DNA from: an uncultured delta proteobacterium
GTDB lineage: Bacteria > Myxococcota_A > Polyangia > Polyangiales > JADJMO01
Direction: 5' to 3'
Assembly (NCBI GenBank): GCA_903923175.1
Contig: CAIXWQ010001121.1
Span: 3,684 to 67,683, forward strand
DNA: 64,000 nucleotides
In this document: piece by piece, positions 12,441-44,683 of the stretch
Layout of the letters: every line of letters begins with the position of its first letter
Position numbering within the stretch: the first letter of the stretch is position 1
Translations under genes and position numbers: made by a program
The notes under the pieces: model-generated
Seen by the model: the letters and a program-made list of their open reading frames with translations, nothing else
Told to the model about the DNA's origin: nothing
Database searches by the model: none

Positions 12441-12452
12441 GCCGAGGCGCCG

Positions 12453-13046
12453 GTGAGCACGCCTGCGCGGATCGACGCGACCGCGGTCGTCGAGCGTGGC
12501 GCCACGCTGGGCGACGGGACGCTCGTCTGGCGCTTCGCGCACGTCATGGCCGGCGCCCGGATCGGCCGCGATTGCACCCTCGGCCAAGGGGTGTTCGTCG
12601 CCGGCAGCGTCGTCGTCGGCGACCGCTGCAAGGTCCAGAACCACGTCTCGCTCTACGACGGCGTCGTGCTGGAGGACGAGGTCTTCCTCGGCCCTTCGTG
12701 CGTCTTCACCAACGTGAAACACCCGCGCGCCGCCATCTCGCGTCGCCACGCGTTCGAGCCCACGCTCGTGCGCCGCGGCGCGACGATCGGCGCCAACGCG
12801 ACGCTCGTCTGCGGCGTCACCGTCGGTCGTCACGCGATGGTCGGCGCCGGCGCGGTCGTCACGCGCGACGTCCCCGACCACGCGCTCTACGTCGGCGTCC
12901 CCGCGCGACAGGTCGGCTGGGTCGGCGTCCGCGGCGTCCCGCTCGTCGCAGACGCCGAGGGCGGCGGCGAGGCGTGGAGGTGCCCCGAGGGGGGCGAGCG
13001 CTACCGCGTGGTGGCCGGCGCCCTCGAGGAGCTCGGTGATGGCTGA
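12453..13046 (+). CDS. Left-handed beta-helix (hexapeptide) N-acetyltransferase, WbpD/WlbB-like
   Basis: GTG start. Hexapeptide repeats run throughout (…IGRDCTLGQGVFVAGSVVVGDRCKVQNHVSLYDGVVLEDEVFLGPSCVFTN…). It overlaps the next gene by 11 nt. Confidence 0.85.
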   Translation: MSTPARIDATAVVERGATLGDGTLVWRFAHVMAGARIGRDCTLGQGVFVAGSVVVGDRCKVQNHVSLYDGVVLEDEVFLGPSCVFTNVKHPRAAISRRHAFEPTLVRRGATIGANATLVCGVTVGRHAMVGAGAVVTRDVPDHALYVGVPARQVGWVGVRGVPLVADAEGGGEAWRCPEGGERYRVVAGALEELGDG

Positions 13047-14112
13047 CCGCGTCCCCTTCGTCGACCTGCGCCCCGACGCCTCGCTCGCGGCGGAGCTCGA
13101 GGCCGCCGCCGCGCGGGTCGTGCGCTCCGGCCGCTACGTGCTCGGTCCCGAGGTAGAGGCCTTCGAACGAGAGATCGGCGGCTTCGTAGGCGCGCGCCAC
13201 GCGATCGGCGTCTCCTCGGGCACCGACGCGCTGATCGTCTCCCTCCTCGCGCTCGGCGTCGGCCCCGGCGACGAGGTCGTCGTCCCGGCGTTCGGGTTCG
13301 TGGCGACGCCCGAAGCCGTGGTGCGCGTCGGCGCGCGGCCGGTCTTCGTCGACGTCGACCCCGCGAGCTACCACCTCGACGTCGCCCGAGCCGCGGCCGC
13401 GCTGACTTCTCGGACCAAGGCCATCCTCGTCGTGCACCTCTTCGGACGCTGCGTGGAGCTCGCTGCGCTCTCGCGCCTCGCGGCGTCGCATCGCGTGGCG
13501 CTCGTCGAGGACGCGGCGCAGGCGATCGGCGCACGCCTCCACGGCACGCAGGCGGGCGCGCTCGCGGACGTCGGCGCGTTCTCGTTCTTCCCGACCAAGA
13601 CGCTCGGCGGGCTCGGAGACGGCGGCCTCGTGACGACGAACGACGACGGCATCGCGCAGGCCGCGCGGTCGCTGCGCGTCCACGGCTCGACCCAGCGAGA
13701 CGAATTCGGTCGCATCGGAGGCAACTTCCGGCTCGACGAGCTCCAGGCTGCGCTGCTCCGCGTGAAGCTCCGCCGGCTCCCCGAGACTCTCGCGGAGCGT
13801 CGCTCGATCGCGAGGGGCTACGCCGTCGCGCTCGCCGCGGCGCCGCTCGATCTCCCTCGCCTCTCCGACGACGACACGTACAACCCGTACGTCGTGCGCG
13901 TCCGAGGCGATCGCGACGCCCTGCGCGCACGGCTCGCGGCGGCGGGGATCGAGACCGCGATCTACTACCCGAGGAGCCTCACGCAGCAGCCCGCGTTCGC
14001 GCCGTGGCGCGTGCCGACGCCCGAGGCCGACCGCGCGGCGCGTGAGGTGCTCGCGCTCCCTCTGCGCGCCGATGCGCCGGCGCGCATCGCGGCCGTGCTC
14101 GGGCGCGGCTGA
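13036..14112 (+). CDS. DegT/DnrJ/EryC1/StrS-family PLP aminotransferase (WbpE-like)
   Basis: VPFVDL…, SGTDALIVSLLALGVGPGDEVVVPAF, FSFFPTKTLGGLGDGG (the PLP-lysine region) and NFRLDELQAA are all typical of sugar aminotransferases. Confidence 0.9.
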   Translation: MMADRVPFVDLRPDASLAAELEAAAARVVRSGRYVLGPEVEAFEREIGGFVGARHAIGVSSGTDALIVSLLALGVGPGDEVVVPAFGFVATPEAVVRVGARPVFVDVDPASYHLDVARAAAALTSRTKAILVVHLFGRCVELAALSRLAASHRVALVEDAAQAIGARLHGTQAGALADVGAFSFFPTKTLGGLGDGGLVTTNDDGIAQAARSLRVHGSTQRDEFGRIGGNFRLDELQAALLRVKLRRLPETLAERRSIARGYAVALAAAPLDLPRLSDDDTYNPYVVRVRGDRDALRARLAAAGIETAIYYPRSLTQQPAFAPWRVPTPEADRAAREVLALPLRADAPARIAAVLGRG

Positions 14113-15258
14113 TCAGGCCAACGTCGCCGGCTCGGCCGGCAGCGCCGCCCGCTCGTGCCTCGACGAGTGCGAGTTCGCCGGCGCTTCGTCGACCATCGTG
14201 CCGTCGTCGCGGAACCGCGCGAGCTCCGCGTTCGCGCGGCGCAGGTACTCCTGCTTCACGTGGAACGGCAGGAACGAGCTCTTGAAGCCCGCCATGATGA
14301 TCTGCTTGATGTCCCGCAGCTCGAGCCCCATCTCGGTGTGGCAGAGCCAGATCTCCTTCGAGACCGTGGTGTCGGTGATCAGCCGGTTGTCGGTGTTCAC
14401 CGTCACGCGCAGGCCGAGGTCCGAGTAGAACTTGAGCGGGTGCGAGCGCAGATCGCGCACGGCGCCGGTCTGCACGTTCGACGACGGGCAGCACTCGAGC
14501 GGGATCCGGTGATCGTTCACGTAGTGCAGCAGATCGCCGTTCTCGCGGAGCCGGCAGCCGTGGCCGATGCGGTGCGCGCCGCAGACGTGGATGGCCTGGG
14601 CGATCGACTCGGGGCCGTACGCCTCGCCGGCGTGGATGGTCGTGTTGATGTTGTTGTCGCGCACCAGCTGGAACGCCGCCTTGTGGTGCTTCGCCGGGTG
14701 GCCGTCCTCGCCGCCGGCGAGGTCGAAGCCGACGACGCCGCGGTTCTTGTAGGCGACCGCGAGCTCCGCCATCTCGAGCGACGACTCGGCCGAGATGTTG
14801 CGGATCCCGCACACGATGATGTTCGACTCGATGCCGTGGTCCTTCTCGGCGGCGCGCAGCCCCTCGAGGACGGCCTCGATCACGCTCGTCAGCTTCAGCC
14901 CGAGCTGCGTGTGGAGCATCGGCGCGTAGCGGACCTCCATGTAGCGGACGTTCTCGGCGGCCGCGTCCTCGGCCAGCTCGTACGCGATGCGCGTGAGCGA
15001 GGCCTCGGTCTGCATGACCTTGAGCGTGACGTCGAAGGCCTTGAGGTACTCGACCAGCGAGCCGCAATTCTCGCCGAGGTGCATGAACTTGCGCAGGCCG
15101 TCGGCCGAGTCGGCAGGGAGCTGGACGCGCTCCCTGTCGGCGAGCTCCAGGATCGTCTCGAGGCGGAGCGAGCCGTCGAGGTGAACGTGCAGATCGGTCT
15201 TCGGGAGCTTCTCGATGAAGCTCAGGGGCAGGCGGGATGCCGTTCCTTGGGTTGACAT
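14113..15258 (-). CDS. add: Adenosine deaminase
   Basis: LPKTDLHVHLDGSLR, a metal-binding HxH near the N-terminus, …TIHAGE…, …RIGHG… and …TVNTDN… are canonical adenosine deaminase motifs. Start is set at ATG 15258. Its stop is directly adjacent to the stop of the convergent aminotransferase. Confidence 0.9.
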   Translation of the reverse strand: MSTQGTASRLPLSFIEKLPKTDLHVHLDGSLRLETILELADRERVQLPADSADGLRKFMHLGENCGSLVEYLKAFDVTLKVMQTEASLTRIAYELAEDAAAENVRYMEVRYAPMLHTQLGLKLTSVIEAVLEGLRAAEKDHGIESNIIVCGIRNISAESSLEMAELAVAYKNRGVVGFDLAGGEDGHPAKHHKAAFQLVRDNNINTTIHAGEAYGPESIAQAIHVCGAHRIGHGCRLRENGDLLHYVNDHRIPLECCPSSNVQTGAVRDLRSHPLKFYSDLGLRVTVNTDNRLITDTTVSKEIWLCHTEMGLELRDIKQIIMAGFKSSFLPFHVKQEYLRRANAELARFRDDGTMVDEAPANSHSSRHERAALPAEPATLA

Positions 15259-15386: not shown

Positions 15387-16955
15387 ATGCTCCGCGTGCT
15401 CCCCTCCAGCCCCCGGTCCGCTCCGCGCTTCGTCGCCGTTTCCCTCTGCGCGCTCGGCCTCGCGGCCGCTGGATGGGGCGGGTGCGGGTTCGAGTCGTCG
15501 GGGACGGGCCTCGAACCGCTCGACGCCGGCGACGCGTCCTTCGACGCCGACGCAGCGGCGGACGTCCCGATCGACACGACGCCGCCTACGGATGGGCCGA
15601 GCTGCGACGACGGACTCAAGAACGGCGACGAGACCGACTTCGACTGCGGTGGCTCGCGCTGCGCGCCGTGCGGGGCCGGCCTGCACTGCGGGACGAGCCT
15701 CGACTGTGCGACGAGCCTCTGCGTGGGCGGCGTCTGCGTCGCTCCGGGGTGCACCAACGGCACGAAGGACGGCTCGGAGACCGACGTGGACTGCGGCGGA
15801 AGCTGCGGCAAGTGCGTCGACGGGAAGACCTGCGCCGCCGCGGGCGACTGCGCCAACGGCTTCTGCAACCCGACCACGCTCAAGTGCGCGACGCCGACCT
15901 GCTCGGACGGCTTCAAGGACGGCAGCGAGATCGACGTCGACTGCGGCGGCAGCTGCGGCAAGTGCGGCGACGGGAAGACGTGCGCCGCGGCGGTCGACTG
16001 CACCAACGGCTTCTGCAACCCGACCACGCTCAAGTGCGCGACGCCGACCTGCTCGGACGGCTTCAAGGACGGCAGCGAGATCGACGTCGACTGCGGCGGG
16101 ACCTGTGGCAAGTGCGGCGACGGCAAGACGTGCACGGCGGCCGCCGACTGCGTGAATGGCTTCTGCAATCCGACGACGCTCAAGTGCGCGACGCCTTCGT
16201 GCGCGGACGGCTTCAAGAACGGCCTCGAGACGGACGTCGACTGCGGCGGCGCAGGGGCCTGCGCCCGCTGCGCGCCGAAGAAGAGCTGCGCGGCGAACGC
16301 CGACTGCGCGACGTCGTGGTGCGCGACGGGCGCTTGTCAGCTCGCGACCTCGTGCAGCGCGCTGCTCGCCGCGGTGCCCGGCCTGCCGAGCGGCGCCTAC
16401 CAACTCGATCCGGACGGCGCCGGCCCGAACGCGCCCTTCAGCGCCTACTGCGACATGACCACGGACGGCGGCGGCTGGACGTTCTTCGCCCACGTGAACC
16501 AGGACTACGTCGGCTCGAACCTCTTCGAGAAGAACGTCGGGACGTACCGGGTCGACCGGGTCGACGACAACACCACGTACGGGCGCGCCGAGTGGATCCT
16601 GCCGTACGTCGGGCATACGCACATGCTCGTCACGCTGGACGGCGTCGATCCCGCGGCCGCCGCCGCGGCCAAGAAGGTCGTCGTGTTCGAGTACACCGCG
16701 GGCGTCCCGGCGTTCAACCGAGGTCCCGTGCCGTGCCTCGGGCTCGCGTCGGGGTACTCGTTCAGGACGGCGCTGACGGGCGCTTTCACGAGCGGTGGCG
16801 CAGGCACTTGCGATGCGACCCGGTGGTACGCGCAAACGGGCGGCGGCGGCTATCTGCTCTCGTTTGGCGGCGGAAACGCGTACGGCGTCTCCTGGGAGGC
16901 CGGCCTCGGCGGCGACGGGACATGGAACCACGATGGGTATTTCTGGGTTCGCTGA
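15387..16955 (+). CDS. Secreted/lipoprotein with five 50-aa six-Cys repeats and a C-terminal fibrinogen-related (FReD-like) domain
   Basis: Signal peptide (MLRVLPSS…LGLAAAGWGGC). Repeats of the form CxDGxKDGSExDVDCGGSCGKCxDGKTCxxxxDCxNGFCNPTTLKCATPT. Then CSALL…PSGAYQLDPDG…PFSAYCDMTTDGGGWTFF, which matches the hallmark YCDM-x-T-x-GGGWT of fibrinogen C-terminal domains. Confidence 0.85.
   Translation: MLRVLPSSPRSAPRFVAVSLCALGLAAAGWGGCGFESSGTGLEPLDAGDASFDADAAADVPIDTTPPTDGPSCDDGLKNGDETDFDCGGSRCAPCGAGLHCGTSLDCATSLCVGGVCVAPGCTNGTKDGSETDVDCGGSCGKCVDGKTCAAAGDCANGFCNPTTLKCATPTCSDGFKDGSEIDVDCGGSCGKCGDGKTCAAAVDCTNGFCNPTTLKCATPTCSDGFKDGSEIDVDCGGTCGKCGDGKTCTAAADCVNGFCNPTTLKCATPSCADGFKNGLETDVDCGGAGACARCAPKKSCAANADCATSWCATGACQLATSCSALLAAVPGLPSGAYQLDPDGAGPNAPFSAYCDMTTDGGGWTFFAHVNQDYVGSNLFEKNVGTYRVDRVDDNTTYGRAEWILPYVGHTHMLVTLDGVDPAAAAAAKKVVVFEYTAGVPAFNRGPVPCLGLASGYSFRTALTGAFTSGGAGTCDATRWYAQTGGGGYLLSFGGGNAYGVSWEAGLGGDGTWNHDGYFWVR
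15750..16199 (+). repeat. Three tandem 150-bp in-frame coding repeats, the last two nearly identical at DNA level
   Basis: The Cys codon that opens each unit is at 15750, 15900 and 16050, and a more diverged unit opens at 16200. Units 15900-16049 and 16050-16199 differ at only a handful of mostly synonymous or conservative positions. More diverged units flank the array at about 15603 and 16200. Confidence 0.9.
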
Positions 16956-17043: not shown

Positions 17044-19794
17044 TTGGCCAAGCAGCAGCTCCTCCTCGTCGACAGCGATCCCCGAGGGATGCGCGTCCTC
17101 GAAGTCAGCCTGAAGAAGGCCGGGTACATCGTCACGACCGCGCACACCGTCGCCGACGCGCTGGCGATGGTCGACGTCTCGACGCCCGACCTCATCCTGA
17201 CCGAGACGCGGTTGCAGGGGGGCGACGGCTTCCAGCTCGTCCGGCGGCTCAAAGAGCACCCGGAGTGGTCGAACATCCCGGTCGTCTTCCTCGCGAGCGA
17301 CAAGTCGATCGAGGACAAGGTCCGCGGCCTCGAGCTCGGGGTCGAGGACTACCTCACGAAGCCGATCTTCGTGCGTGAGCTGCTGACGCGCGTCAGCCTG
17401 CTCCTCGCGAAGCGCTCGCAGGAGCGGCTCACCAGCGCGCGGGGTGGGGGGCGCACGCGCTTCGCCGGCTCGATCGAAGACATGGCCGTCGTCGACCTGC
17501 TGCAGACCATCGAGGTCTCGCGCAAGAGCGGCACGGCGCGCCTCGAGAACGGTCCGCATTCGGCGACGCTCTGGTTCCGCGACGGTCACGTCGTCGACGC
17601 GCAGCTCGGCAAGCTCGAGGGCGAAGAGGCGGTCTATCGGACGCTCATCTGGAACGGCGGCACGTTCGAGGTCGAGTTCGGGCCCGCGTCGTCCGTGACG
17701 CGGGATCAGACGATCGCGACCTCGACGCAGGCGCTCCTGATGGAGGGCATGCGCCGCGTCGACGAGTGGGGTCGCCTGCTCGAGCAGCTCCCGGCGCTCT
17801 CGACGGTGTTCGAGGTCGAGCGAGCGGTCCTGCTCGAGCGGCTCGGCGAGATCCCCGACGAGCTCAACGGCATCTTGCGGCTCGTCGACGGCCATCGGTC
17901 GATCATGGAGCTCGTCGACGCCTCGCCGTTCGAGGATCTGTCGACCCTCTCGACGGTTTCGAAGCTCTATTTCGAGGGGCTGCTGGTGCCCGCCGGGAGC
18001 GCGTCGACCGACGAGCACGCCGTGGTGCCGGGCCCCGAGGGCGAGAACAAGTCGGGGAACTACGCCTCGGCGAAGCCCGAGGAGATCGTCCCGCCCTCGG
18101 CGCACATGCAGGCCGCGCACGTCGCGCCGTCGCCCGCGCCGCCGAGGGCCCCTCCGGTGGCCCCCGCTCCCCCCGCGGCGCACTCGAGCGTCGAGGACGC
18201 GATCGAGGCGGCGATGCTGGCGCTCGAGCACGAGCCGCCGCCGAGGCCGAAGGCCGCCGCCGTCGACTCCTGGGCGATGCCGCCGGGCCCGCGACGGGCC
18301 GACGAGGCCGCCGTCGATCTCGCGCTCGCCGCCCTCGAGCACGCGACCGAGCCGACGCCGGCCGCCAAGCCGGCGCCGCCGCCCACCGAGCGCAAGGTCG
18401 CCGATTCGCAGCCGCCGCCCGAGCCGATCCCGCTCTCGCAGACGAAGGGCTCGAGCGAGACCCCGCTCCCGAAGACGACGGCGATCCGCATCTCCGCGAG
18501 CGCGCTGCGCGATGCCATCTCGCACGCCTCGCCGAAGCCGAGCGTCCCGGACGAGGCGATCGGCACGACGCTGCCCTCCGGCGGGGCTCCGCCGCCGACG
18601 AAGGCCGAGACCCCGGCGGCCCGCGCGGCCGAGCCGCCGCCGCACGACGACGACGACGCCTCGGACAAGCCCGAGCCACGCGCCGTCTTCCGGGTCGCGT
18701 CGGGGTCGAAGTCCGAGCCCGCCATCCTCACGGCGCACGAGGTCGCGTCGAGCAAGCCCAAGTCCGAGCCCCCCGCGACGCCGATGCGACTCGCCGCGGC
18801 CCCGCCGACCGAGGAGGCCGCGGAGGAGGCGCCGACACCGGAGCCGCCGGCGCCCGATCTCGCCAAGACCGCGATTTCGATCGCGGTGCCGAGGGAGGTC
18901 TCCGACGCCGCGGCGGCGGCCGTCCGCGACGCGATTCAGCGCCCCGCGGCCGAGGCGAGGGCCCAGTCCGCGTCGGCCAGGCGCGAGGAGGCCGCGGCTT
19001 CCAAGGGTGCCACGAAGGACGAGCGGGCAGCCGCGTCGGCGGGGGCCGAAGCGCACGACGAGGACGACCATCATCCGGCGTTCTTCGGAAAGAGCGAGGA
19101 GGAGGTCCACGCGGAGCTCCGGCGGCGTGAGGCGCCCGATCTCGTCGACGACGATCTCGCCCACGCGCGCGTCTCGCGCGTGCCGCCGCAGCGCGCGCGC
19201 TCGATCGTGCTCGGCGTCGTCGCCATCGCGGGCATCCTCGGCATCGTGGCGCTCGGCCGTCGCGCGATGCGGCGTCAGGACGACTCCACGAACGCGCCCG
19301 TCGCTACGGCCACGGTCACGGCGAGCACGCCCGCGCCCTCGTTCTCCGAGACGCCTCTCGCGAGCCCTTCGGCCTCGGGCGTCAGCCCGAGCCCGACCGA
19401 GGGCGACGCCGGCGCGGACGCCGACGCTTCGGCGACGAGCGACGCCGCCGATGCCGGCGACGCCATGGAAGAGACGCTCGTGGACGCGGCGCCCGAAGCT
19501 GCGACCGCCGACGCCGCCGCCGCGGACACGCTGGCCGATCCCGACGCGACGAAGTCGGGCCCCCAGCTGCTCGGCGAGGCCCGCGCGGCGCTGAACGGCG
19601 GCAACAACGCCCGGGCGGTCGCGCTCGGGCGCAAGGCCGCTGCGAAGGGGGCGGGCGGCAGCGCGTACTACGTGATCGGCGCCGCCTATCAGAACATGGG
19701 CTCCACCGGAGCGGCGAAGTCCGCCTACGAGACGTGCGCGAAGAGCGGGTGCGCAGAGGCGACCGAGTGCGAGGCGATCGCGGGCGGGCTATAG
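17044..19794 (+). CDS. Response-regulator receiver, DUF4388-like domain, long Pro/Ala-rich spacer, TM helix and small TPR-like C-terminal domain
   Basis: The TTG start at 17044 is required to include receiver strand beta-1 (QQLLLVDSD). REC motifs are present (DLILTE…, …KP). [28 protein letters not shown] is typical of DUF4388/PATAN-type domains. About 450 aa of P/A/E-rich sequence follows. Predicted TM helix [18 protein letters not shown]. The C-terminus is …[26 protein letters not shown]. Confidence 0.85.
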
Positions 19795-19804
19795 ACGTCC
19801 GGTC

Positions 19805-22714
19805 GTGAGGCGATCTGGTCAGCGCGCGCGAGGCGAGGCGCTCCACCACGAGCGCGCGTGGCTGTCAGGGGCGGCCTGGCTCGCCCCGCTGCTCGGCCTG
19901 GCACTTCAGGCGTCGTCCTGCGATGGCCGCGCGCCGCGTGGCGTGACGTCGCCGGGGCCCGCCGACGCTCCTTGGCCGGTGAAGCTCGCGATCCCGCTCC
20001 ACCTGCAAGAGGCCGCGGCGGTCCGGCGAGAGGCGTGGCCGGTCACCTCCGGCGTGCCCTTCCGTCGAGGACTTCTCGCTCAGGTCGGGATGCTCCGCCT
20101 GCGTGATCCGAGTGGCGTCCCGGTGCCTCTGCAGGCCAGGGCCACGGCGCGTTGGGACGACGGCAGCGTCAAGTGGGCTCTCCTCGACTTTCTCGCCCGC
20201 GCCGCGCCGTCGGAGACGACGACCTACTCGCTCGAGGTCGGGACCTCCGAGGCGCCCACCTGGCCCGCCTCGCCCGCCTCGCCCGCCTCGCCCGGCTCGA
20301 CCGGCGTCACGGTTCGCGACGCCGATCAGCGGCTCGTGGTCGACACCGGCGCGCTCCGCGCCGTCTTCTCGCGGCGATCGTTCGGCGTGCTGTCGCAGGT
20401 GAGCGTCCACGGCATGCCCGTGTGGGAGTCGCCGAGCGAGCTCTCGATCGACCTCGAGCACCTCCCGCCGGGTCCCCCCGACGAGGAGAACTGGCTGCGG
20501 ACGTCGGCCGGCGGGCCGCGCGAGCGCTTCGAGGCCCGGGCGTGCGAGCAGCGGATGGTCGTCGAAGAGGCCGGCCCCGTCCGCGCCACCATCCGCGTCT
20601 CGGGCTGTCACGCCAACGCGGCGGGCGCGCGCTTCGCTCCCTACGACGTGTGGGTGCACCTGTACGCAGGGCAGGCGTTCGCCCGTCTGCAGCACACGTT
20701 CGTGTTCGACGGCGAGCCGAAGCGGGACTTCCTCCGGTGGATGGCGCTTCGCTTCGGCCCGATCGCCGGCGCGGACGCGTTCACGATCGGCCTGCCTGCG
20801 GGGCGGAGCGTGACGACGACCGCCGGGCCCCTCGGCCTCGTGGAGCCCGGAGCCGCCAAGCACTATCACCTCGTCGCGTACGGCGAAGCGCGCGACGCCG
20901 CGTTCCGGATCGAAGCCCCCGGCGGCCCGCTCGCGATCGGCGAGGCGTCGCCGGGTTGGGCGGATGTGTCCTCCAAGGCCGTCGGGGTGACGGTCGCGCT
21001 CCGAGACTTCGCGCATCAGTATCCGAAGGCGATCCGCCTCGAGGCGAACGGCGGACTCTCCGTCGACCTGTGGCCGGAGGCCGACGACGAGGTCCTCGAT
21101 CTTCGACGGCGAAGCGACGTCGTCGACGACGAGTACCACTACGATCTGACGCTCTCTCCGCGCGGAGGACGCGGGATCGCCAAGTCCCACGAGCTCCTGC
21201 TCGACTTCCATCGCGGCCCCGTCGACCCCGCGCGCGCGGCGGGATTCTCCCGCGCGCTCGACGAGCCGCTCTGGGCCTTCGCGTCTCCCGAGTACAACGC
21301 CGAGACCGCCGCCTTCGGGGCGTTCCACCCCCGCGATCCGCAGCGTTTTCCGCGGCTCGAGCGATCGCTCGACTTCGCGCTCGCGTGGCTGCGAGCGAAC
21401 CAGCGCGCTTTCCATTGGGACGGCCTCGTCGACTACGGCGACACGCTGTTCCACGGCTACGAGATTCCCACCCACCGCGGCGACGTGCGCGAGCGGGCGT
21501 GGGGGAGTCGTGGCTACGTCGGCTGGCTCAACAACGACGGCGACCTCGTCCACTCGCTCTACCTGCAGTACCTCCGCAGCGGCGACCGCAGGGTGATGCA
21601 CACCGCCGAGGCGATGGCGCGCCACGTGATGGACGTCGACACCTGCCACTACGACCCGGACGATCCGGGCAACGTCGGCGGCGGCCACCGGCACGACGAG
21701 CAGCACTGGGGCAACCACATCGTCGGGTACGGGACGGCTTCGCAGGGGACGATCGACGATTACCTGCTCACCGGCGACGCGCGCGCGCTCGTGGTCGCGC
21801 GCGAGAACGCGTCGTTCCACCTCGCGCCGACGGGCGAGGACGAGGGCCGCTACGGCGCCCTGCTGCGCTTCGCCGAGCTCACGCGGGACGAGGGGGCGCG
21901 GGCGGCCGCGGCACGGGTCCTGGACGAGCAGCTCGGCGTGCCGACCGGCGCCGCGTGGCCGTTCGTGACGCCGCGACACTTCCGCTTCGTCTCGCTCGAG
22001 AGCACGGGGCTGCTGCTCGCGGAGTCGGTGCGCCACGACGCGCGCCTCGGGGCCGCGATCGTGAGCGCAGTCGACGGCGTCGCCGACGAGCTCACCTCGG
22101 ACTGGCGCGATCCGGGCTATGCGCCGCAGATCCTCATCGCCGAGGCCCATCGCCAGACGCGCGCGACGAAGTACGGCGAGCTCGCGAAGGCCGTCGTTCA
22201 CGCGCTGCGCATCCCCGCCGCGGGCGCGGCGCCGGCGAGCTTCGAGGAGCTTCCGTTCGAGGAGCTCGTGCGCATCGGGCGGCTGCTGCGGGTGAACAAC
22301 CTGATGACCGCGAACCTCGAGCTCCTCTGCGGTCTCCCGTATCTGATGCGGGTTCTGGCCGACGAGAAGATCTCGGAGGCCGACGTCGACGCCTACGTGC
22401 CTCGCCACGATCTTCCGGCTCCCTTCGTCGAGGAGCTCGACCCCGCTCGCCTCGTGAAGGAGTCGCCCCGCGGGTTCGCCTACGTCTACGACCTGGCCCA
22501 CGGCTCGCCGAGCGACGCGCGGGGGGGGCCCTCGACGCTCGAGCTGTACGAAGACGGCCGCCTCCTCGGCCCCGCGCACGCTGCGCACGCCGACATCCGC
22601 GCCCTCGGTCGCGGGCGGTGGAGCCACTGGGGCTCGAACACCATTCGATTCTCGGCGAGCGACGACAGCGACCCACGCACGAACCGCCGCAGGTACTTCG
22701 TGCGTCAGCGCTGA
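19805..22714 (+). CDS. Large hypothetical lipoprotein, possibly a glycan lyase/hydrolase-like (PcRGLX/YetA-like) protein
   Basis: GTG start. Signal and lipobox (LLGLALQASSC). The N-terminal pattern WPVTSGVPF-RG…LRL-D-G-PVP-Q…WDDGSVKWALLDF recalls the RIFT-barrel N-terminus of PcRGLX-like proteins. This is a by-eye impression only. 969 aa with strong GC3 bias. Confidence 0.78.
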   Translation: MRRSGQRARGEALHHERAWLSGAAWLAPLLGLALQASSCDGRAPRGVTSPGPADAPWPVKLAIPLHLQEAAAVRREAWPVTSGVPFRRGLLAQVGMLRLRDPSGVPVPLQARATARWDDGSVKWALLDFLARAAPSETTTYSLEVGTSEAPTWPASPASPASPGSTGVTVRDADQRLVVDTGALRAVFSRRSFGVLSQVSVHGMPVWESPSELSIDLEHLPPGPPDEENWLRTSAGGPRERFEARACEQRMVVEEAGPVRATIRVSGCHANAAGARFAPYDVWVHLYAGQAFARLQHTFVFDGEPKRDFLRWMALRFGPIAGADAFTIGLPAGRSVTTTAGPLGLVEPGAAKHYHLVAYGEARDAAFRIEAPGGPLAIGEASPGWADVSSKAVGVTVALRDFAHQYPKAIRLEANGGLSVDLWPEADDEVLDLRRRSDVVDDEYHYDLTLSPRGGRGIAKSHELLLDFHRGPVDPARAAGFSRALDEPLWAFASPEYNAETAAFGAFHPRDPQRFPRLERSLDFALAWLRANQRAFHWDGLVDYGDTLFHGYEIPTHRGDVRERAWGSRGYVGWLNNDGDLVHSLYLQYLRSGDRRVMHTAEAMARHVMDVDTCHYDPDDPGNVGGGHRHDEQHWGNHIVGYGTASQGTIDDYLLTGDARALVVARENASFHLAPTGEDEGRYGALLRFAELTRDEGARAAAARVLDEQLGVPTGAAWPFVTPRHFRFVSLESTGLLLAESVRHDARLGAAIVSAVDGVADELTSDWRDPGYAPQILIAEAHRQTRATKYGELAKAVVHALRIPAAGAAPASFEELPFEELVRIGRLLRVNNLMTANLELLCGLPYLMRVLADEKISEADVDAYVPRHDLPAPFVEELDPARLVKESPRGFAYVYDLAHGSPSDARGGPSTLELYEDGRLLGPAHAAHADIRALGRGRWSHWGSNTIRFSASDDSDPRTNRRRYFVRQR

Positions 22715-22900
22715 GACGGCCCTGGGGCGCGACCGCGGCGCGGCAGGCCGCAGAGGCAGGCTCGGGGCGCCGCACGCCCGCCGCCTGGACGTGCCACGTG
22801 GCTTCGTTTGAACTTCCGCGGGCTCCGTGTCAACAAACGCCCTCGTGACGAAGCCCATGCTCCGCGGAATGGACGAGCTCGCCCGAGCTAGGGGCCAGGC

Positions 22901-24217
22901 GTGAGCGCGACGGCGTCCGCTGGCCCGGTCGCGGCGCGTCCCAAGCTCCTGGATCGTCTGCTCGAGCAGACGACCGTCTACGAGCTCCCCTTCTTCGTGA
23001 TGCTCTGCCTGCTCGCGGCGTCGATCCCCAACGAGTCGCTCTTCGGCGGCTACGACTCGAGCACCGGCAAGGGGTTCCGCTCGCCGAGCTACTACCTCGG
23101 TCTCGGCGCCTCGGTGCTGAGCACGATGCTCTTCCCCCGCATGGCCCGCGCCTGCGCGCGCTCGATGCCGATGGTGCTGCTCGTCTCGGCGTTCTCGGTG
23201 TCGCTGGTCGTGCTCACCGCGCTCGTCCTCACGACGGACGCGACCTACCGCCACGAGTACCAGATCGACCGGCAGTACAAGTCGGTCTTCATGGCCGTGA
23301 TGTTCATCGTCGTGACCGGCCACCAGCTCTGGCGCAAGCGCGTGATGCAGTCCTACCTGGTCGGCTGGTTCATCTTCGTCGTCGTCGCGCTCGGGCTGGT
23401 CGTCACCGGTCGCGCGACGACCGTGCAGCACTTCAACGCCGCCCGGATCTCCGTGCTCGGCATGAACGAGAACGTGCAGAGCACCATCGCCGGCTCGGGC
23501 GCCGTCATGTGCCTGAACTTCGCCCTGTTCGAGCGCAGGAGCCGACACTTCGCGCTCTGGGCGGGGCTCTACGTCCTCGGCCTCGCGGCGTTCGTCATCG
23601 GCACCAGCCGCACCGGGCTGGTCGGGCTGGTCGCCGGCCACCTCGTGGTGATCGTCATGGGGTTGTCCGCCGACAGGAAGGGCGCGGCGCGGCTGAGCAG
23701 GCTCCGCGTCCCCGTGATCGTCATCGGGTTCTTCGCCAGCGCCCTCGCCATCGCGAGCCAGTTCGGCATCTTCGACCGCGCGGTGACCTCGATGGGATCC
23801 CGGAGCGAGGCGGCATTCGAGGGTACGGACCTCGGTCACCGCGATCAGCTGGCGCGCGCGACGCTGCGCATCTTCACGGAAAACCCTGCGGGGGTCGGCA
23901 TGGGGAGGACGATGGACTTCCTGCAGGGCTCCGACCCGCATAACGGCTACCTCAAGCTCGCGGCGGAGGGGGGCGTCGCGGGGATGCTCCTCTTCGTGTT
24001 CGCGATGCTCGCGGCGCGCCGGAATGCGAGCGCGTGGATGCGGGCCGACGCTGACGAGATCGGGATCGCGGCCTGCTTCGTCCTCTACGCCTTCAGCGGC
24101 TTCACTGGCCAGGCGCTCCAGGAGTCGCCGTTCTGGTTCTTCTTCGCGTTCCTCGCCGTCTTGCCTGGCGCGGCCAGCCTGGAGAGCGACTTGCCGCGCG
24201 CCGGCGCGCTCTCGTGA
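22901..24217 (+). CDS. O-antigen polymerase/ligase-family membrane protein (Wzy-like)
   Basis: GTG start. About 10-12 hydrophobic helices. Wzy_C-type motif …GSDPHNGYLKLAAEGGVAGMLLF…. Confidence 0.85.
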   Translation: MSATASAGPVAARPKLLDRLLEQTTVYELPFFVMLCLLAASIPNESLFGGYDSSTGKGFRSPSYYLGLGASVLSTMLFPRMARACARSMPMVLLVSAFSVSLVVLTALVLTTDATYRHEYQIDRQYKSVFMAVMFIVVTGHQLWRKRVMQSYLVGWFIFVVVALGLVVTGRATTVQHFNAARISVLGMNENVQSTIAGSGAVMCLNFALFERRSRHFALWAGLYVLGLAAFVIGTSRTGLVGLVAGHLVVIVMGLSADRKGAARLSRLRVPVIVIGFFASALAIASQFGIFDRAVTSMGSRSEAAFEGTDLGHRDQLARATLRIFTENPAGVGMGRTMDFLQGSDPHNGYLKLAAEGGVAGMLLFVFAMLAARRNASAWMRADADEIGIAACFVLYAFSGFTGQALQESPFWFFFAFLAVLPGAASLESDLPRAGALS

Positions 24218-24234
24218 CGAGCGCGCGGCGCTCG
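24218..24234 (+). terminator. GC hairpin immediately after the Wzy-like gene (weak terminator candidate)
   Basis: CGAGCGC-gcg-GCGCTCG starts 1 nt after the TGA. No U-tract. It is followed by a 200-nt gap before the next gene. Confidence 0.3.
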
Positions 24235-24420
24235 AACGTCGCGCCGACTGCGCGCAACGGAGCCTAGAGCGCCTCCGCGTGACGCCCCGCGCCTTCGCGC
24301 CTCGGCCAGCGCGCCCCGTGTTTCTCCTCTTCTCGGACCGGCCGCTCACGCGCTAGGGAAAGTGGCGCTGCCGCCGTCGCGTGTCGCATTCTCCTCGCCC
24401 CACTTCACGGAGCACCTCGC

Positions 24421-25602
24421 ATGTCCGACCCGGTTCGACCCAAGGAGCGCTTCCTCGTCTTCGGTGCCCCGCTCATCGAGCAGGACGAGATCGACGAGGT
24501 CACCGCCAGCATGCGGGCTCGCTGGCTGGGCACGGGCCCCAAGGTCGCGCGGTTCGAGCGAGACTTCCTCGCGTTCAAGGGGGGCGAGGGGTTCGCCGTC
24601 GCCGTCGCCTCCTGCACGGCGGCGCTGCACCTGAGCCTCGTCGCGTCCGGGATCGGCCCCGGCGACGAGGTCATCACCACGCCCCTGACGTTCTGCGCGA
24701 CGGTCAACGCGATCATCCACGCCGGCGCGACGCCGGTGCTCGCCGACGTCGAGCCCGGGACGATGAACCTCGACCCGCGCGCGGTCGAGGCGGCCATCAC
24801 GCCGCGCACGAAGGCCATCCTCCCCGTGCACTTCGCGGGGCGCCCTTGCGACATGGACGCCCTCGGCGCGATCGCGGAGAAGCACGGGCTCCTGCTCATC
24901 GAAGACTGCGCGCACGCCATCGAGACCAAGCGCGGCGACCGCCACGCGGGCACGTTCGGCGCCTTCGGCTGCTTCAGCTTCTACGTGACCAAGAACGTGA
25001 TCACCGGCGAGGGTGGTCTGGTCCTCACGCGCAACGAGCGGGACGCGGCGCGCATCCGCTCGCTGTCCTTGCACGGCATGTCGCACGACGCGTGGAAGCG
25101 CTTCAGCGACGACGGCTACAAGCACTATCAAGTCGTCGAGTGCGGCTTCAAGTACAACATGACCGACATGCAGGCGGCCATCGGCATCCACCAGCTCGCG
25201 CGCGTCGCGCCGTCCCTGGTGCGCCGCGAGGCGATCTGGTCGCACTACGACGAGCGCCTCGGCGCGCTCGCGCTCCAGACGCCCACGGCGCCCGAGGCGG
25301 GGACGGTGCACGCGCGACATCTGTACACCGTGATGGTCGACGAGGCGCGCACGGGCGTGTCGCGCGACGCGTTCCTCACCGGCATGACGCGCAACAACAT
25401 CGGCGTCGGCGTTCACTACATGAGCGTGCCCGAGCATCCGTACTACCAACAGCGCTTCCAGTGGCGTCCGGAGATGTGGCCGCACGCGATGCGAATCGGC
25501 CGCCAGACGGTGAGCCTGCCCATCTCCCCCGCGATGTCCCTCGACGACGCCGACGACGTCGTGCGCGCCGCGCGCGCTGTGCTCGGCGGGGCGCGCGCGT
25601 AG
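24421..25602 (+). CDS. DegT/DnrJ/EryC1/StrS-family sugar aminotransferase
   Basis: …FGAPLIEQDEIDEV…, ASCTAALHLSLVASGIGPGDEVITTPLTF, FSFYVTKNVITGEGG (PLP lysine) and YKYNMTDMQAAIG. GGAG lies 8 nt upstream of the ATG. Confidence 0.92.
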   Translation: MSDPVRPKERFLVFGAPLIEQDEIDEVTASMRARWLGTGPKVARFERDFLAFKGGEGFAVAVASCTAALHLSLVASGIGPGDEVITTPLTFCATVNAIIHAGATPVLADVEPGTMNLDPRAVEAAITPRTKAILPVHFAGRPCDMDALGAIAEKHGLLLIEDCAHAIETKRGDRHAGTFGAFGCFSFYVTKNVITGEGGLVLTRNERDAARIRSLSLHGMSHDAWKRFSDDGYKHYQVVECGFKYNMTDMQAAIGIHQLARVAPSLVRREAIWSHYDERLGALALQTPTAPEAGTVHARHLYTVMVDEARTGVSRDAFLTGMTRNNIGVGVHYMSVPEHPYYQQRFQWRPEMWPHAMRIGRQTVSLPISPAMSLDDADDVVRAARAVLGGARA

Positions 25603-25621
25603 GTCGGGAGGACGTCGAGCC

Positions 25622-26281
25622 ATGGCCGCGGACACTCGCAACATCATCGTCCACCGACTGCACGACCGCGCGCTCGAGGCGCTCGCGAAGCAGCACTTTC
25701 GCGGCCGCCTGATCGACATCGGCTGTGGCGAGAAGCCCTATCGCAAGATGCTCGCGCCGCTCGTGGACGAGCACGTGGGCGTCGATCACGAGGCGACGAT
25801 GCACCGTCGCGACGCGATCGACGTCTTCGGAACTGCCTACGAGATCCCGTTCCCCGACGCGTCGTTCGATTCGGCGCTCTGCACGGCCGTGCTCGAGCAC
25901 CTCGAAGAGCCGGAGGCCGCGCTTCGCGAGTGCTTCCGGGTGCTTCGCCCCGGCGGCTACGCCATCTACAGCGTGCCGTTCATCTGGCACCTCCACGAGG
26001 AGCCCCGCGACTTCTTCCGCTTCACCAAGCACGGCCTCGAATACCTGCTCAAGAAGGTCGGCTTCGACGCGGTCGAGGTCACCCCGCTCTCGGGTTTCTG
26101 GACGACGTTCTCCACCCTCGCAGCCTACGATCTCTCGCGCTACCAGCGCGGGCCGCTGCGTTGGCTGCGCCTCGTCGACGGGCTGACGCTTGCGGGGCAG
26201 TTCGTGGCGCACGCCTTCGATCGGATCGATCGGCAGCACCAGTGGACGTGGATGTACATCGCAGTGGCCCGCAAGCCGTGA
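25622..26281 (+). CDS. Class I SAM-dependent methyltransferase
   Basis: Motif I LIDIGCGEKPY. Post-I and motif II-III …VLEHLEEPEAALRECFRVLRPGGYAIYSVP. Confidence 0.85.
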   Translation: MAADTRNIIVHRLHDRALEALAKQHFRGRLIDIGCGEKPYRKMLAPLVDEHVGVDHEATMHRRDAIDVFGTAYEIPFPDASFDSALCTAVLEHLEEPEAALRECFRVLRPGGYAIYSVPFIWHLHEEPRDFFRFTKHGLEYLLKKVGFDAVEVTPLSGFWTTFSTLAAYDLSRYQRGPLRWLRLVDGLTLAGQFVAHAFDRIDRQHQWTWMYIAVARKP

Positions 26282-26317
26282 TGCTCGCTCCCTCGACGAG
26301 AGCGCCTCGAGGCACCG

Positions 26318-27394: not shown

Positions 27395-27426
27395 GCGGGC
27401 CGCACGGAAGCCGACCTCTGGACGCC

Positions 27427-28182: not shown

Positions 28183-28297
28183 TGCGAGCGGCGCGAAGTG
28201 CGCGAGCGAGGGTCGCGCGTGCGACGCGCCGGCCAGGGCCGTCGTCGGGAGCCACTGGCGTGAGCTCCGTCGCCGCCGCGCTGCCCGCGGAGCGAGC

Positions 28298-29809: not shown

Positions 29810-29828
29810 CCGCGAGATCGCTTGGCAG

Positions 29829-30755: not shown

Positions 30756-30925
30756 CGAAGGCGAGCGTCGCGGAGCAGCGGTGCTGCCACCGGCTGGGCA
30801 TCGATGGTCGGCCGCAGCGTGCGAAGCTCCTTAACCCTCGGACCCTCGGGGCGCGAGCTTCCGCCCGCTTCGCGCTCCCGGCCGTCTCCCCCTCGCTGCG
30901 CCGCGGCGCGCCGTTCTTCCGGTCG

Positions 30926-34365: not shown

Positions 34366-34419
34366 CGACGTCTCGGGTGCGAGGGCGCGACGTCGACCGC
34401 AGCGCGCGCATGATGCGCG

Positions 34420-34805: not shown

Positions 34806-34946
34806 CGCTCGCGACACACGCCAAGGGCGTAGGCTGGGCCAGCTGCGCGCGTGCGCCTCGAGGAACGGTTCGAGCGGAACAAAGCGAAACGGCGCGTCCC
34901 CTCCAGGAGAGGAACGCGCCGTTCGCTGCAGATGTCGTCGCCGGCG

Positions 34947-44646: not shown

Positions 44647-44683
44647 GAGAGGCTTCTGCTCAGCCGCTCCGGCGAGGCTCCGC

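What the first reader, a model, noticed from the sequence alone, without database searches (positions are those of the whole stretch)
15387..16955. Bacterial fibrinogen-related (ficolin-like) domain fused to six-Cys repeats, next to an N-acetyl-sugar-rich glycan locus
The C-terminal ~210 aa start with C-x-x-LL…PSGAYQLDPDG…PFSAYCDMTTDGGGWTFF. This is the near-invariant signature of the fibrinogen C-terminal globe (YCDM-x-T-x-GGGWT). It is a mainly metazoan fold, and ficolins and tachylectins use it to bind acetyl groups on glycans. Here it sits behind a signal peptide and five 50-aa six-Cys modules. The surrounding locus encodes at least four N/O-acetyltransferases and three sugar aminotransferases. 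The idea that this protein is a lectin for the cell's own or a prey's acetylated polysaccharide is inference.
Basis: partly seen in the sequence, partly recalled or inferred. Interest (0 to 1): 0.6.

Follow-up and report, generated by a model that had tools for sequence, protein, structure and literature searches.

The report
Polysaccharide-locus lipoprotein with fibrinogen-like head
This gene encodes a probable membrane-anchored surface protein with a cysteine-rich stalk and a divergent fibrinogen/intelectin-like head, and because its relatives almost always sit inside polysaccharide-synthesis gene clusters, it is probably a lectin that holds or organises the cell's own surface sugar polymer.

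Summary
The ORF at 15387-16955 (+) is real and under purifying selection. It encodes 522 aa: a lipoprotein-type signal peptide, an acidic linker, five ~50-aa modules and a 201-aa C-terminal head. Each module has eight Cys, not six.

The head passes NCBIfam NF040941 (GGGWT_bact, 72 bits). It matches Pfam Fibrinogen_C only over profile positions 16-63 of 221. Its AlphaFold model (pLDDT 86.5) finds only fibrinogen-related domains (FReDs) and intelectins, at TM 0.44-0.51. The distal region, where ficolins bind acetyl groups, has no detectable sequence similarity to any solved structure. It is therefore a divergent FReD-superfamily head, not a ficolin-like domain.

The motif is widespread in bacteria and phages, so recent transfer from eukaryotes is unlikely.

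The new result is genomic. Ten of 11 loci with this architecture lie in Wzx/Wzy or amino-sugar clusters. In a same-method test the count was 7 of 9, against 3 of 158 loci carrying other GGGWT proteins (p = 7e-9). Against a close ortholog, the distal head diverges as fast as Wzc, while flanking genes stay 98-100% identical.

Best reading, by inference: a surface tether or lectin for the locus's own polysaccharide.

The parts
15387..16955 (+). Complete CDS (522 aa plus stop) of the lipoprotein with a Cys-rich stalk and a FReD-like head
   Evidence: Translation. A 100% identical protein, P0170, is in public data. dN/dS is 0.23 against the 72%-identical ortholog in L082. The sequence just upstream of the ATG is conserved in L082.
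15387..15485 (+). Signal peptide ending in the conserved Cys33. The lipobox is atypical here (GWGG-C) but canonical in relatives.
   Evidence: Read directly from the sequence. Orthologs keep A-W-[GT]-G-C. Relatives have LVAC, VAGC, SLAC, LLGC, LTAC and similar. No signal-peptide predictor was available.
15486..15602 (+). Mature N-terminus and Asp/Ala-rich linker. Together with Cys33 (codon 15483-15485) its first residues form the family-specific motif C-x-[LF]-[DE]-x-x-G (CGFESSG here).
   Evidence: The motif is present in 11 of 14 subfamily members, against 1 of 108 other proteins from the full-length search, most of them 8-Cys-module proteins.
15603..16349 (+). Five tandem ~50-aa eight-Cys modules, consensus CxDGxxNGxETDxDCGGxxCxxCxxGxxCxxxxDCxSGxCxxxxC. 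Presumed to form a rigid disulfide-rich stalk.
   Evidence: There is no Pfam, NCBIfam or PHROG family for it. The AF2 model has low confidence (pLDDT 66.9) and gives only weak knottin-like matches.
16350..16952 (+). 201-aa C-terminal FReD-superfamily head. The first ~47-55 residues carry the A-subdomain signature, and the distal part is specific to bacteria. It ends ...WNHDGYFWVR.
   Evidence: NF040941 matches aa 322-367 and PF00147 matches aa 335-387. AF2 gives pLDDT 86.5 and pTM 0.87.
14113..15258 (-). Divergently transcribed adenosine deaminase. It marks the conserved left flank of the locus.
   Evidence: Pfam A_deaminase. Its N-terminal 33 aa are identical in ortholog locus L082.
17044..19794 (+). 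Response regulator with REC plus DUF4388/PatA_N domains, 88 bp downstream on the same strand.
   Evidence: The same gene follows the ortholog in L082, with 97.7% identity over the first 260 aa.
12441..14112 (+). Hexapeptide acetyltransferase (12441-13046) and a DegT aminotransferase (~13050-14112) just upstream.
19676..63999 (.). Remainder of the Wzx/Wzy-type polysaccharide locus. Genes found: PcRGLX-like; Wzy_C 22892-24217; DegT 24283-25602; methyltransferases; GNAT-like 26282-27394; Wzx 28016-29809; three AsnB-like; GT4 genes; Wzc 44684-46939(-); Wzy_C-TPR 47238-49706(-); Antibiotic_NAT 52072-53367(-); Acyl_transf_3 53325-54482; DegT 54452-55669(-); PglD-like 55603-56478(-); Bac_transf 56274-57233(-); heparinase II/III-like 58141-60255(-).

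Best explanation
The gene encodes a lipid-anchored envelope protein that belongs functionally to the Wzx/Wzy polysaccharide locus around it. After export, Cys33 is lipidated. An acidic linker and five disulfide-locked eight-Cys modules form a stalk. The stalk carries a C-terminal head of the fibrinogen/intelectin superfamily.

The N-terminal part of the head is the conserved scaffold (the A subdomain, with the C323-C355 disulfide and YCDMTTDGGGWT). The distal third is specific to bacteria and rich in Trp, His and Asp (FNxGPxPC ... C....WY ... GxGGxxxWxHDGxWYVR). This distal third is the likely ligand site.

The head most likely binds the locus's own polysaccharide, which is rich in amino sugars and acetamido sugars. 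This would tether or organise the polymer at the cell surface. In function this would resemble the E. coli capsule lectin Wzi, or the matrix lectins encoded next to the Vibrio vps genes.

Shown: the architecture, the superfamily assignment, the conserved neighbourhood and the pattern of divergence. Inferred: lipidation, surface exposure, glycan binding and the identity of the ligand.
For: 1. Superfamily. NF040941 scores 72 bits and PF00147 passes its cutoff. The AF2 model has pLDDT 86.5. All 67 Foldseek PDB hits with E<=1e-3 shown are FReDs or X-type lectins at probability 1.0. These are recognition domains, mostly lectins. The best structural matches are cyanophage tail-fibre-like proteins, TMq 0.53-0.62.

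2. Neighbourhood. Ten of 11 loci encoding this architecture (lipoprotein signal, 8-Cys-type modules, this head) lie in polysaccharide or nucleotide-amino-sugar clusters with otherwise different gene content:
- the window itself
- L082
- L083, L084, L085 and L086
- L088 and the P0186 contig
- L090
- L169
The genes are often co-directional with 16-140 bp gaps.

3. Same-method control. Using tblastn with window-derived DegT, Wzx, Wzc, Wzy and Bac_transf queries, 7 of 9 subfamily loci were positive. Only 3 of 158 loci carrying other GGGWT proteins were positive (1.73 Mb searched). Fisher p = 6.6e-9.

4. Co-divergence. Values are against the ortholog locus L082:
- adenosine deaminase N-terminus: 33/33 identical
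- response regulator N-terminal domains: 97.7% identical (dN 0.018)
- distal third of the head: 48.8% identical (dN 0.46)
- Wzc: dN 0.43
- head scaffold (aa 322-375): dN/dS 0.095

5. Export and anchoring. Canonical lipoboxes occur in relatives. The post-Cys motif is found in 11 of 14 subfamily members against 1 of 108 other proteins from that search, most with 8-Cys modules. Eight Cys per module implies an oxidising, extracytoplasmic location.
Against: The S1 acetyl pocket and Ca2+ site of ficolins are not recognisable. Lectin activity therefore rests on fold-family precedent only.

Global TM-scores to solved FReDs are modest, at 0.44-0.51.

The window protein's own lipobox is atypical, with W at -3. 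No predictor was run.

One subfamily locus, L087, shows no sugar genes on its visible side.

The loci are mostly metagenomic Myxococcota-like contigs, so phylogenetic non-independence is not fully controlled. In the window and in L082 the gene sits at the edge of the locus next to housekeeping-like genes.
Confidence: 0.45

Rival explanations
1. It is an adhesin for foreign glycans, such as prey cell walls, chitin or plant and fungal polymers. It would be co-regulated with the organism's exopolysaccharide, and the stalk would present the head to external surfaces rather than to the cell's own polymer.
For: The 8-Cys stalk is a generic scaffold in this lineage. It occurs in more than 2000 proteins with many different heads, including Gal_Lectin, CBM-like, Laminin_G_3 and FG-GAP. 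The closest structural relatives are phage tail-fibre-like proteins that recognise foreign surfaces. Metazoan FReD lectins recognise non-self.
Against: This does not explain why this head specifically tracks polysaccharide-synthesis loci (7 of 9 against 3 of 158). It also does not explain why the distal region diverges in step with Wzc and Wzy between close relatives.
Confidence: 0.2
2. It is an accessory of the export or assembly machinery that works through protein-protein contacts. For example, it could dock on the outer-membrane or periplasmic export components, or on the neighbouring propeller proteins. The FReD-like head would then be a protein-binding module, as in angiopoietins, tenascins and fibrinogen.
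For: Many FReDs bind proteins, and angiopoietin, tenascin and FGL1 are among the Foldseek hits. The conserved mature N-terminal motif suggests a specific interaction or sorting step. Large FG-GAP or BNR propeller proteins are adjacent in L083, L086 and L088. Fast divergence could equally follow a fast-evolving partner such as Wzc.
Against: No conserved partner gene is shared by all loci. FG-GAP homologs are absent from the window. Neighbours differ widely apart from sugar-pathway genes.
Confidence: 0.15
3. The protein would be a ficolin/tachylectin-type lectin that recognises acetyl groups through a conserved S1 pocket next to a Ca2+ site.
For: The loci are rich in DegT aminotransferases and N-acetyltransferases, so acetamido sugars are the expected ligand class. 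Ficolin-2, FIBCD1 and TL5A are among the Foldseek hits.
Against: Pfam covers only positions 16-63 of 221. Profile-to-PDB alignments stop at position 105-113 or earlier. Residues 366-522 have no similarity to any solved chain. hhalign in local mode aligns only 47 columns to a canonical FReD, and the P-subdomain hallmark CA....GGWWY..CH.SNLNG is absent. The P-region disulfide differs, with C129-C154 spaced 25 residues apart. The stalk is not collagen-like.
Confidence: 0.1
4. It is a passenger gene, either recently acquired from a eukaryote or hitch-hiking at the border of a variable locus. It would have no function related to the polysaccharide.
For: In the window and in L082 the gene lies at the locus edge, between adenosine deaminase and a response regulator. 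FReDs are best known from animals.
Against: GC3 is 0.90, like the neighbouring genes. dN/dS is 0.23. The motif is found in at least 460 prokaryotic genome loci across many phyla, and in phages. In other loci the gene is internal and operon-like.
Confidence: 0.05

Closest known systems
NCBIfam NF040941 'GGGWT_bact' (fibrinogen-like YCDxxxxGGGW domain-containing protein)
   Same: The window protein matches the whole 46-position model at 72 bits against a cutoff of 30. Public relatives already carry this name.
   Different: The model describes only the first ~46 residues of the head. It says nothing about the remaining ~155 residues, the 8-Cys stalk, the lipoprotein N-terminus or the polysaccharide-locus context.
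X-type lectins / intelectins (Xenopus XEEL 4WMO, human intelectin-1 4WMQ/6USC, lamprey serum lectin 7E1E)
   Same: These are the best sequence-profile matches among solved structures, E = 1.6e-12 to 1e-10. They include the continuation GGGWTLVASVHEN, which parallels GGGWTFFAHVNQD here. Foldseek gives TMq 0.47-0.51. Like this protein, they keep only an FReD-like core with a different distal part.
   Different: Intelectin domains are ~280 aa and bind exocyclic diols through a Ca2+ site (from general knowledge). Nothing beyond the first ~57 positions aligns. No Ca2+-ligand residues could be identified.
Ficolins, tachylectin-5A and FIBCD1 (acetyl-binding FReD lectins; Pfam PF00147)
   Same: They share the A-subdomain signature and its disulfide, and the overall superfamily fold at probability 1.0. 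They are also heads carried at the end of a stalk.
   Different: The P-subdomain (S1 pocket, Ca2+ site, NCA...GGWWY..CH motif) is not detectable. TM-scores are only 0.43-0.49. The stalk is made of 8-Cys modules rather than collagen or a coiled coil.
Cyanophage FReD/COLFI-annotated tail-fibre-like proteins (e.g. S-ShM2 E3SJT6, P-SSM4 Q58LR8, S-CAM8 R9TQT3)
   Same: These are the best structural matches, with TMq 0.53-0.62 and rmsd 5.2 A for E3SJT6. They are prokaryote-world FReD-like heads at the C-terminus of fibrous proteins.
   Different: They are viral virion proteins of 300-360 aa with 12-18% identity. They have no Cys-module stalk and no polysaccharide-locus context.
Locus-encoded polysaccharide-binding proteins: E. 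coli Wzi (group 1 capsule) and Vibrio cholerae RbmC/Bap1 (functional analogues, from general knowledge)
   Same: These are envelope or matrix proteins encoded with the polysaccharide genes. They bind the polymer and retain or organise it at the cell surface.
   Different: Their folds are unrelated (an outer-membrane beta-barrel, and beta-propeller plus beta-prism domains). There is no homology to this protein, and the analogy is untested here.

Membership tests
NCBIfam NF040941 GGGWT_bact | Score at or above the curated cutoff (30 bits) over the 46-position YCDxxxxGGGW model | tested here: met
   72.2 bits, E = 2.6e-20, aa 322-367, model positions 1-46 of 46.
Fibrinogen-related domain (Pfam PF00147 Fibrinogen_C) | A-subdomain signature: N-terminal Cys disulfide-paired with the Cys of YCDM, followed by T.GGGWT | tested here: met
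   C323...YC355DMTTDGGGWT is present. PF00147 scores 24.9 bits against a cutoff of 22. C2 is nearly invariant (>=90%) and C34 invariant in the 35-sequence family alignment.
Fibrinogen-related domain (Pfam PF00147 Fibrinogen_C) | Match across the whole ~220-residue domain (A, B and P subdomains) | tested here: not met
   Only profile positions 16-63 of 221 align. A canonical FReD from the giant protein P0139 gives 191 bits over positions 3-219 as a positive control. hhalign in local mode aligns 47 columns only.
Fibrinogen-related domain (Pfam PF00147 Fibrinogen_C) | FReD three-dimensional fold | tested here: inconclusive
   The AF2 model has pLDDT 86.5. All top Foldseek hits are FReDs or intelectins at probability 1.0. 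However, TM is 0.44-0.51 with rmsd 7-10 A globally, and the local core is ~121-132 columns at rmsd 4.7-6.4 A.
Ficolin/tachylectin-5A-type acetyl-binding lectin | P-subdomain with the Ca2+ site and S1 pocket (FST.D.D...NCA....GGWWY..CH.SNLNG, with an internal disulfide ~13 residues apart) | tested here: not met
   No such motif is present. Residues 366-522 match no PDB chain. Profile alignments to TL5A and Ang1 end at position 105-113. The family's second disulfide candidate, C129-C154, is spaced 25 residues apart.
Ficolin/tachylectin-5A-type acetyl-binding lectin | Binding of acetylated ligands (GlcNAc, GalNAc, acetyl compounds) | not testable with these tools
   This requires recombinant protein and glycan or resin binding assays.
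X-type lectin (intelectin) | A ~280-aa intelectin domain with conserved Ca2+-coordinating ligand-site residues | tested here: not met
   Only the first ~55-58 profile positions align to XEEL, ITLN1 and LSVL. The head is 201 aa.
Bacterial lipoprotein | Signal peptide ending in a lipobox [LVI][ASTVI][GAS]C | tested here: inconclusive
   The window protein has G-W-G-G-C33, which is atypical at -3, and this is conserved in orthologs as W-[GT]-G-C. Subfamily relatives have canonical lipoboxes. No predictor or experiment was available.
Component of a Wzx/Wzy-dependent polysaccharide locus | Conserved co-location with Wzx, Wzy, Wzc, initiating transferase or nucleotide-sugar genes across divergent loci | tested here: met
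   Ten of 11 loci by annotation. By the same tblastn test, 7 of 9 against 3 of 158 controls, p = 6.6e-9.

The most novel reading that the evidence does not exclude
Lipoproteins with an FReD-like head would be a previously unrecognised component of Wzx/Wzy polysaccharide systems in Polyangia-type Myxococcota. They would co-evolve with serotype and act as a dedicated surface lectin that tethers the polymer. Specificity would lie in a bacterial-specific distal region that replaces the animal P-subdomain.

By extension, the fibrinogen/intelectin lectin scaffold of animal innate immunity would have a deep prokaryotic and phage history as a recogniser of bacterial surface glycans.
Probability: 0.3. 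Interest if true: 0.7.

Novelty: new variant of a known kind. Interest (0 to 1): 0.5.

Why it matters
If correct, this gives Wzx/Wzy polysaccharide loci of a large, poorly studied bacterial group a new accessory class: a lipid-anchored lectin specific to the locus's own polymer. It would help explain how these organisms keep exopolysaccharide attached to the cell.

It also offers a set of natural lectin and glycan pairs in which the head varies along with the sugar-synthesis genes. That could be useful for glycan-binding reagents.

Finally, it reframes the fibrinogen/intelectin recognition fold as one that is widespread in bacteria and phages, rather than an animal invention occasionally borrowed.

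The hypothesis is directly testable with one knockout and one recombinant domain.

Tried and rejected
- **Exact-sequence context look-up.** Neither the window protein nor its identical public copy P0170 was on record.
- **Alternative start and antisense ORF.** The alternative start at 15237 was rejected because it overlaps the adenosine deaminase 5' end, and the ortholog shares the conserved ...GGGGCACCTC-ATG context. The antisense ORF at 15290-16336, with GC3 0.91, was rejected as a wobble-sharing shadow frame.
- **Promoter and terminator scan** around the gene found nothing. This is uninformative at 70% GC.
- **Structure of the Cys modules.** The AF2 model had only pLDDT 66.9. Foldseek gave non-significant knottin-like hits (E>3) for the six-Cys C-terminal half of a module. 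Sequence search of PDB gave nothing meaningful.
- **Attempts to align the distal head to canonical FReDs.** phmmer with residues 366-522 found nothing. hhalign in global mode gave a 167-column alignment that has low confidence beyond column ~48. hhalign in local mode gave 47 columns, and the C-terminal part alone reached only 3% probability.
- **PHROGs.** Only the N-terminal subdomain matches three phage families.
- **Literature.** Four full-text searches found no paper on bacterial FReD-like proteins in polysaccharide loci. A fifth search traced the key prior paper, Doolittle et al. 2012, Protein Sci 21:1808, through a citing paper, but that paper is not held.
- **Metagenome scan.** It returned mostly short contigs and other GGGWT families. 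Those served as controls rather than new subfamily loci, except for L090.
Full report
**Observation**

The + strand ORF at 15387-16955 translates to 522 aa. It has the codon-position GC pattern of the neighbouring genes, with GC3 of 0.90. An identical protein, P0170, exists in public data on a 73.6-kb contig.

The quoted motifs are present. The protein consists of:
- a signal peptide ending at Cys33;
- an Asp/Ala-rich linker;
- five tandem modules of 49-51 aa (aa 73-321);
- a 201-aa C-terminal domain that starts SCSALL...YCDMTTDGGGWTFF and ends ...WNHDGYFWVR.

The middle three modules form a 150-nt repeat of 3.2 copies with 89% matches. Each module has eight Cys, not six. All 47 two-module segments extracted from homologs have 16 Cys, and the consensus is CxDGxxNGxETDxDCGGxxCxxCxxGxxCxxxxDCxSGxCxxxxC.

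**What the head is**

NCBIfam NF040941 (GGGWT_bact, 'fibrinogen-like YCDxxxxGGGW domain') matches aa 322-367 at 72 bits. Pfam Fibrinogen_C just passes its cutoff, at 24.9 against 22 bits, but covers only profile positions 16-63 of 221. As a positive control, a canonical fibrinogen-related domain (FReD) found in the giant protein P0139, which also carries an 8-Cys-type module, scores 191 bits over positions 3-219.

A profile of 35 full-length relatives matches solved structures only over its first ~50-113 positions. The best matches are X-type lectins (lamprey LSVL, XEEL and intelectin-1, E = 1e-12 to 1e-10), followed by tachylectin-5A, tenascins, fibrinogen beta and the collagen C-propeptide. 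Residues 366-522 alone match nothing. hhalign in local mode aligns only 47 columns to the canonical FReD.

An AlphaFold model built with 16 sequences is confident, with pLDDT 86.5 and pTM 0.87. Foldseek finds only FReDs and intelectins at probability 1.0. However, TM-scores are 0.44-0.51, and the well-superposed core is ~121-132 columns. Cyanophage tail-fibre-like proteins annotated as FReD or COLFI fit better, with TMq up to 0.62.

The head is therefore a divergent member of the fibrinogen/intelectin superfamily. Its scaffold is conserved. Its distal region, where ficolins carry the Ca2+ site and the S1 acetyl pocket, is replaced by bacterial-specific conserved motifs: FNxGPxPC, C....WY and GxGGxxxWxHDGxWYVR.

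**Distribution**

A profile search of 1.84 billion representative proteins gave 15,058 hits at E<=1e-3. Dozens of these covered the whole 201-aa head, always at the C-terminus of the protein. Others were giant proteins with up to 15 copies of the N-terminal piece alone.

The exact peptide MTTDGGGW occurs in at least 460 confirmed loci among species-representative genomes. These include Myxococcota, Bacteroidota, Auribacterota, Patescibacteria, Gammaproteobacteria and a Nanoarchaeota assembly. Recent transfer from a eukaryote is therefore not a sensible reading. 'Bacterial FReD-like domain' is already an annotation category.

**The stalk**

The 8-Cys module has no Pfam, NCBIfam or PHROG family. 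It is found in more than 2000 proteins (E<=1e-10), whose few source names are Myxococcota (Sandaracinaceae, Labilithrix, Polyangia). These carry many different C-terminal domains, such as Gal_Lectin, Laminin_G_3, FG-GAP, CARDB and LTD. It therefore looks like a generic presentation scaffold. Its structure could not be established.

**Genomic context**

This is the main new result. The window carries a large Wzx/Wzy-type polysaccharide locus. It contains:
- three DegT aminotransferases;
- five acyl/acetyltransferase-family genes;
- a PglC/D/E-like trio;
- Wzx, two Wzy_C genes and Wzc;
- several GT4 glycosyltransferases;
- three AsnB-like amidotransferases;
- two methyltransferases;
- two lyase-like genes.

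The target gene is the first of a co-directional run of ten genes.

I then looked at every relative with the same architecture for which contigs could be retrieved:

| Locus | Neighbouring genes |
|---|---|
| L082 (72% ortholog) | response regulator, UDP-GlcNAc 2-epimerase, Wzy_C, Wzc |
| L083 | DegT x2, NeuB, CMP-sugar transferase, HisH/F-like |
| L084 | hexapeptide acetyltransferase, DegT, RmlABC-like, Wzc |
| L085 | Bac_transf, PglF-like, Wzx |
| L086 | AsnB, Wzy_C, GT2, Wzx |
| L088 | Wzy_C, DegT x2, Bac_transf, UDP-Glc dehydrogenase |
| P0186 contig | GT4, hexapeptide acetyltransferase, DegT, PglF-like, Bac_transf |
| L090 | methyltransferase, DegT, Bac_transf, GT4 |
| L169 | nucleotidyltransferase, dehydratase, DegT |

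Only L087 showed no sugar genes, and there the gene abuts the contig end.

As a like-for-like control I ran tblastn with the window's DegT, Wzx, Wzc, Wzy and Bac_transf proteins at E<1e-8. Seven of 9 subfamily loci were positive. Only 3 of 158 loci carrying other GGGWT proteins were positive, across 1.73 Mb (3 of 83 among loci of at least 10 kb). Fisher p = 6.6e-9.

There are three caveats:
- tblastn is less sensitive than Pfam. It missed L086.
- The controls span many phyla.
- The subfamily loci are not phylogenetically independent, although their gene contents differ widely.

**Divergence pattern**

Between the window and L082:

| Region | Identity | dN | Other |
|---|---|---|---|
| Adenosine deaminase N-terminus | 33/33 identical | | |
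| Response regulator REC/PatA_N part | 97.7% | 0.018 | dS 0.34 |
| Target gene, whole | 72% | | dN/dS 0.23 |
| Head scaffold (aa 322-375) | | | dN/dS 0.095 |
| Head distal third (aa 441-522) | 48.8% | 0.46 | |
| Wzc | | 0.43 | |
| Wzy-TPR | 37% | | |

The most variable part of the protein therefore changes at the pace of the serotype-determining machinery. This is what one expects if it contacts the variable polymer or a variable machinery component.

**Anchoring**

Subfamily members have canonical lipoboxes. The window protein and its orthologs have W-[GT]-G-C instead. The mature N-terminus carries the motif C-x-[LF]-[DE]-x-x-G in 11 of 14 members, against 1 of 108 other proteins from the full-length search, most of them 8-Cys-module proteins. 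This suggests a specific sorting or docking function. It remains unexplained.

**Interpretation**

The best-supported reading, with confidence about 0.45, is a lipid-anchored lectin with a stalk-presented head. It would bind the locus's own amino-sugar-rich polysaccharide and tether or organise it at the cell surface. Functionally this would be comparable to Wzi or to the Vibrio matrix lectins, which have unrelated folds.

The rivals are:
- an adhesin for foreign glycans (0.2);
- a protein-binding accessory of the export machinery (0.15);
- a passenger gene (0.05).

Lipidation, surface exposure and ligand identity are all inferred.

**Novelty and score**

The bacterial FReD-like signature is already known through NF040941. 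Full-text searches found no paper describing three things seen here. The first is the full head family with its replaced distal region. The second is its lipoprotein/8-Cys architecture. The third is its specific, co-diverging association with polysaccharide loci. The key prior paper on FReD evolution (Doolittle et al. 2012) could not be read.

I rate this a new variant of a known kind, with interest 0.5.

Noticed in passing
window 42466-44646 (+): This ORF (stop-to-stop 42466-44646) encodes another probable lipoprotein in the same locus, with lipobox LAAC. It has an Asp/Ala-rich linker and a different Cys-rich repeat (C..NCG.CG..C type, Pfam Stig1 hit E = 7e-11). Its C-terminal region has ~43-aa repeats carrying YVYWTD, YVYWSN and YVFFTD motifs, which recall LDL-receptor YWTD propeller blades. 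Pfam gives no hit for that part.
   Followed up: partly
window 34947-37691 (-): This ORF (914 codons stop-to-stop) encodes a probable lipoprotein made of about ten tandem ~90-aa repeats (TDKS.Y..G..V.V.W......DWVGIAP.G...S...W.YTNGV.NGS..F.G...G.YRVRFY.ND.F). It gives only sub-threshold Ig-like or CBM-like Pfam hits (SdrD_B, AMPK1_CBM). It may be another surface protein associated with the polysaccharide.
   Followed up: partly
window 15483-15506 (CGFESSGT), and N-termini of P0032, P0045, P0181, P0186, P0193, P0215, P0267, P0048, P0064: The mature N-terminal motif C-x-[LF]-[DE]-x-x-G follows the lipobox Cys. It is specific to the subfamily with the FReD-like head (11 of 14, against 1 of 108 other proteins from the full-length search, most with 8-Cys modules). 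Its function is unknown. It could be a sorting or docking signal.
   Followed up: partly
P0098, P0129, P0136, P0161, P0169: These homologs have type IV pilin-like N-termini (FTLVELIVV...) and carry the same head. They show W where the family has invariant G, for example TDWGGWTF and MWWNNTWWHD. This looks like UGA=Gly (genetic code 25, Gracilibacteria/Absconditabacteria) mistranslated as Trp. It would imply pilus-tip FReD-like lectins in candidate-phyla-radiation bacteria.
   Followed up: no
P0139 residues ~5850-6055: This 6283-aa protein carries an 8-Cys-type module next to three divergent GGGW heads. It also contains one fully canonical FReD, with FSTYD...CAQSYHGAWWYTSCHSSNLNG...SEMKMR, scoring 191 bits over Pfam positions 3-219. 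If the protein is bacterial (its source was not established), canonical and divergent forms coexist in bacteria.
   Followed up: partly
P0025-P0030 and others: These giant proteins (2400-7950 aa) carry up to 15 copies of only the N-terminal ~50-aa GGGWT subdomain. This suggests the A subdomain can act as an independent repeat unit.
   Followed up: no
L083 2251-5484; L086 1305-4484; L088 9219-11321: Large secreted beta-propeller proteins lie next to the FReD-like gene in three related loci. Two are FG-GAP proteins of 1059-1077 aa that are 40% identical to each other, and one is a BNR-like protein of 700 aa. The window has no FG-GAP homolog.
   Followed up: partly
window 19676-22714 (+) and 58141-60255 (-): The biosynthetic locus contains two polysaccharide-lyase-like genes, one PcRGLX-like and one heparinase II/III-like. 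It also has three AsnB-like amidotransferases (30926-32857, 39365-41260, 60236-62275). Together these hint at a processed polymer containing uronamide.
   Followed up: no
P0219: A 623-aa protein labelled 'unnamed protein product [Adineta ricciae]' (a bdelloid rotifer) matches the bacterial 8-Cys module region at 46% identity. This could be assembly contamination or horizontal transfer into the rotifer.
   Followed up: no
window 15290-16336 (-): A 348-codon antisense open frame with GC3 of 0.91 overlaps the repeat region. It shares wobble positions with the real gene and has no homology support. It is a shadow ORF typical of high-GC repeats.
   Followed up: yes
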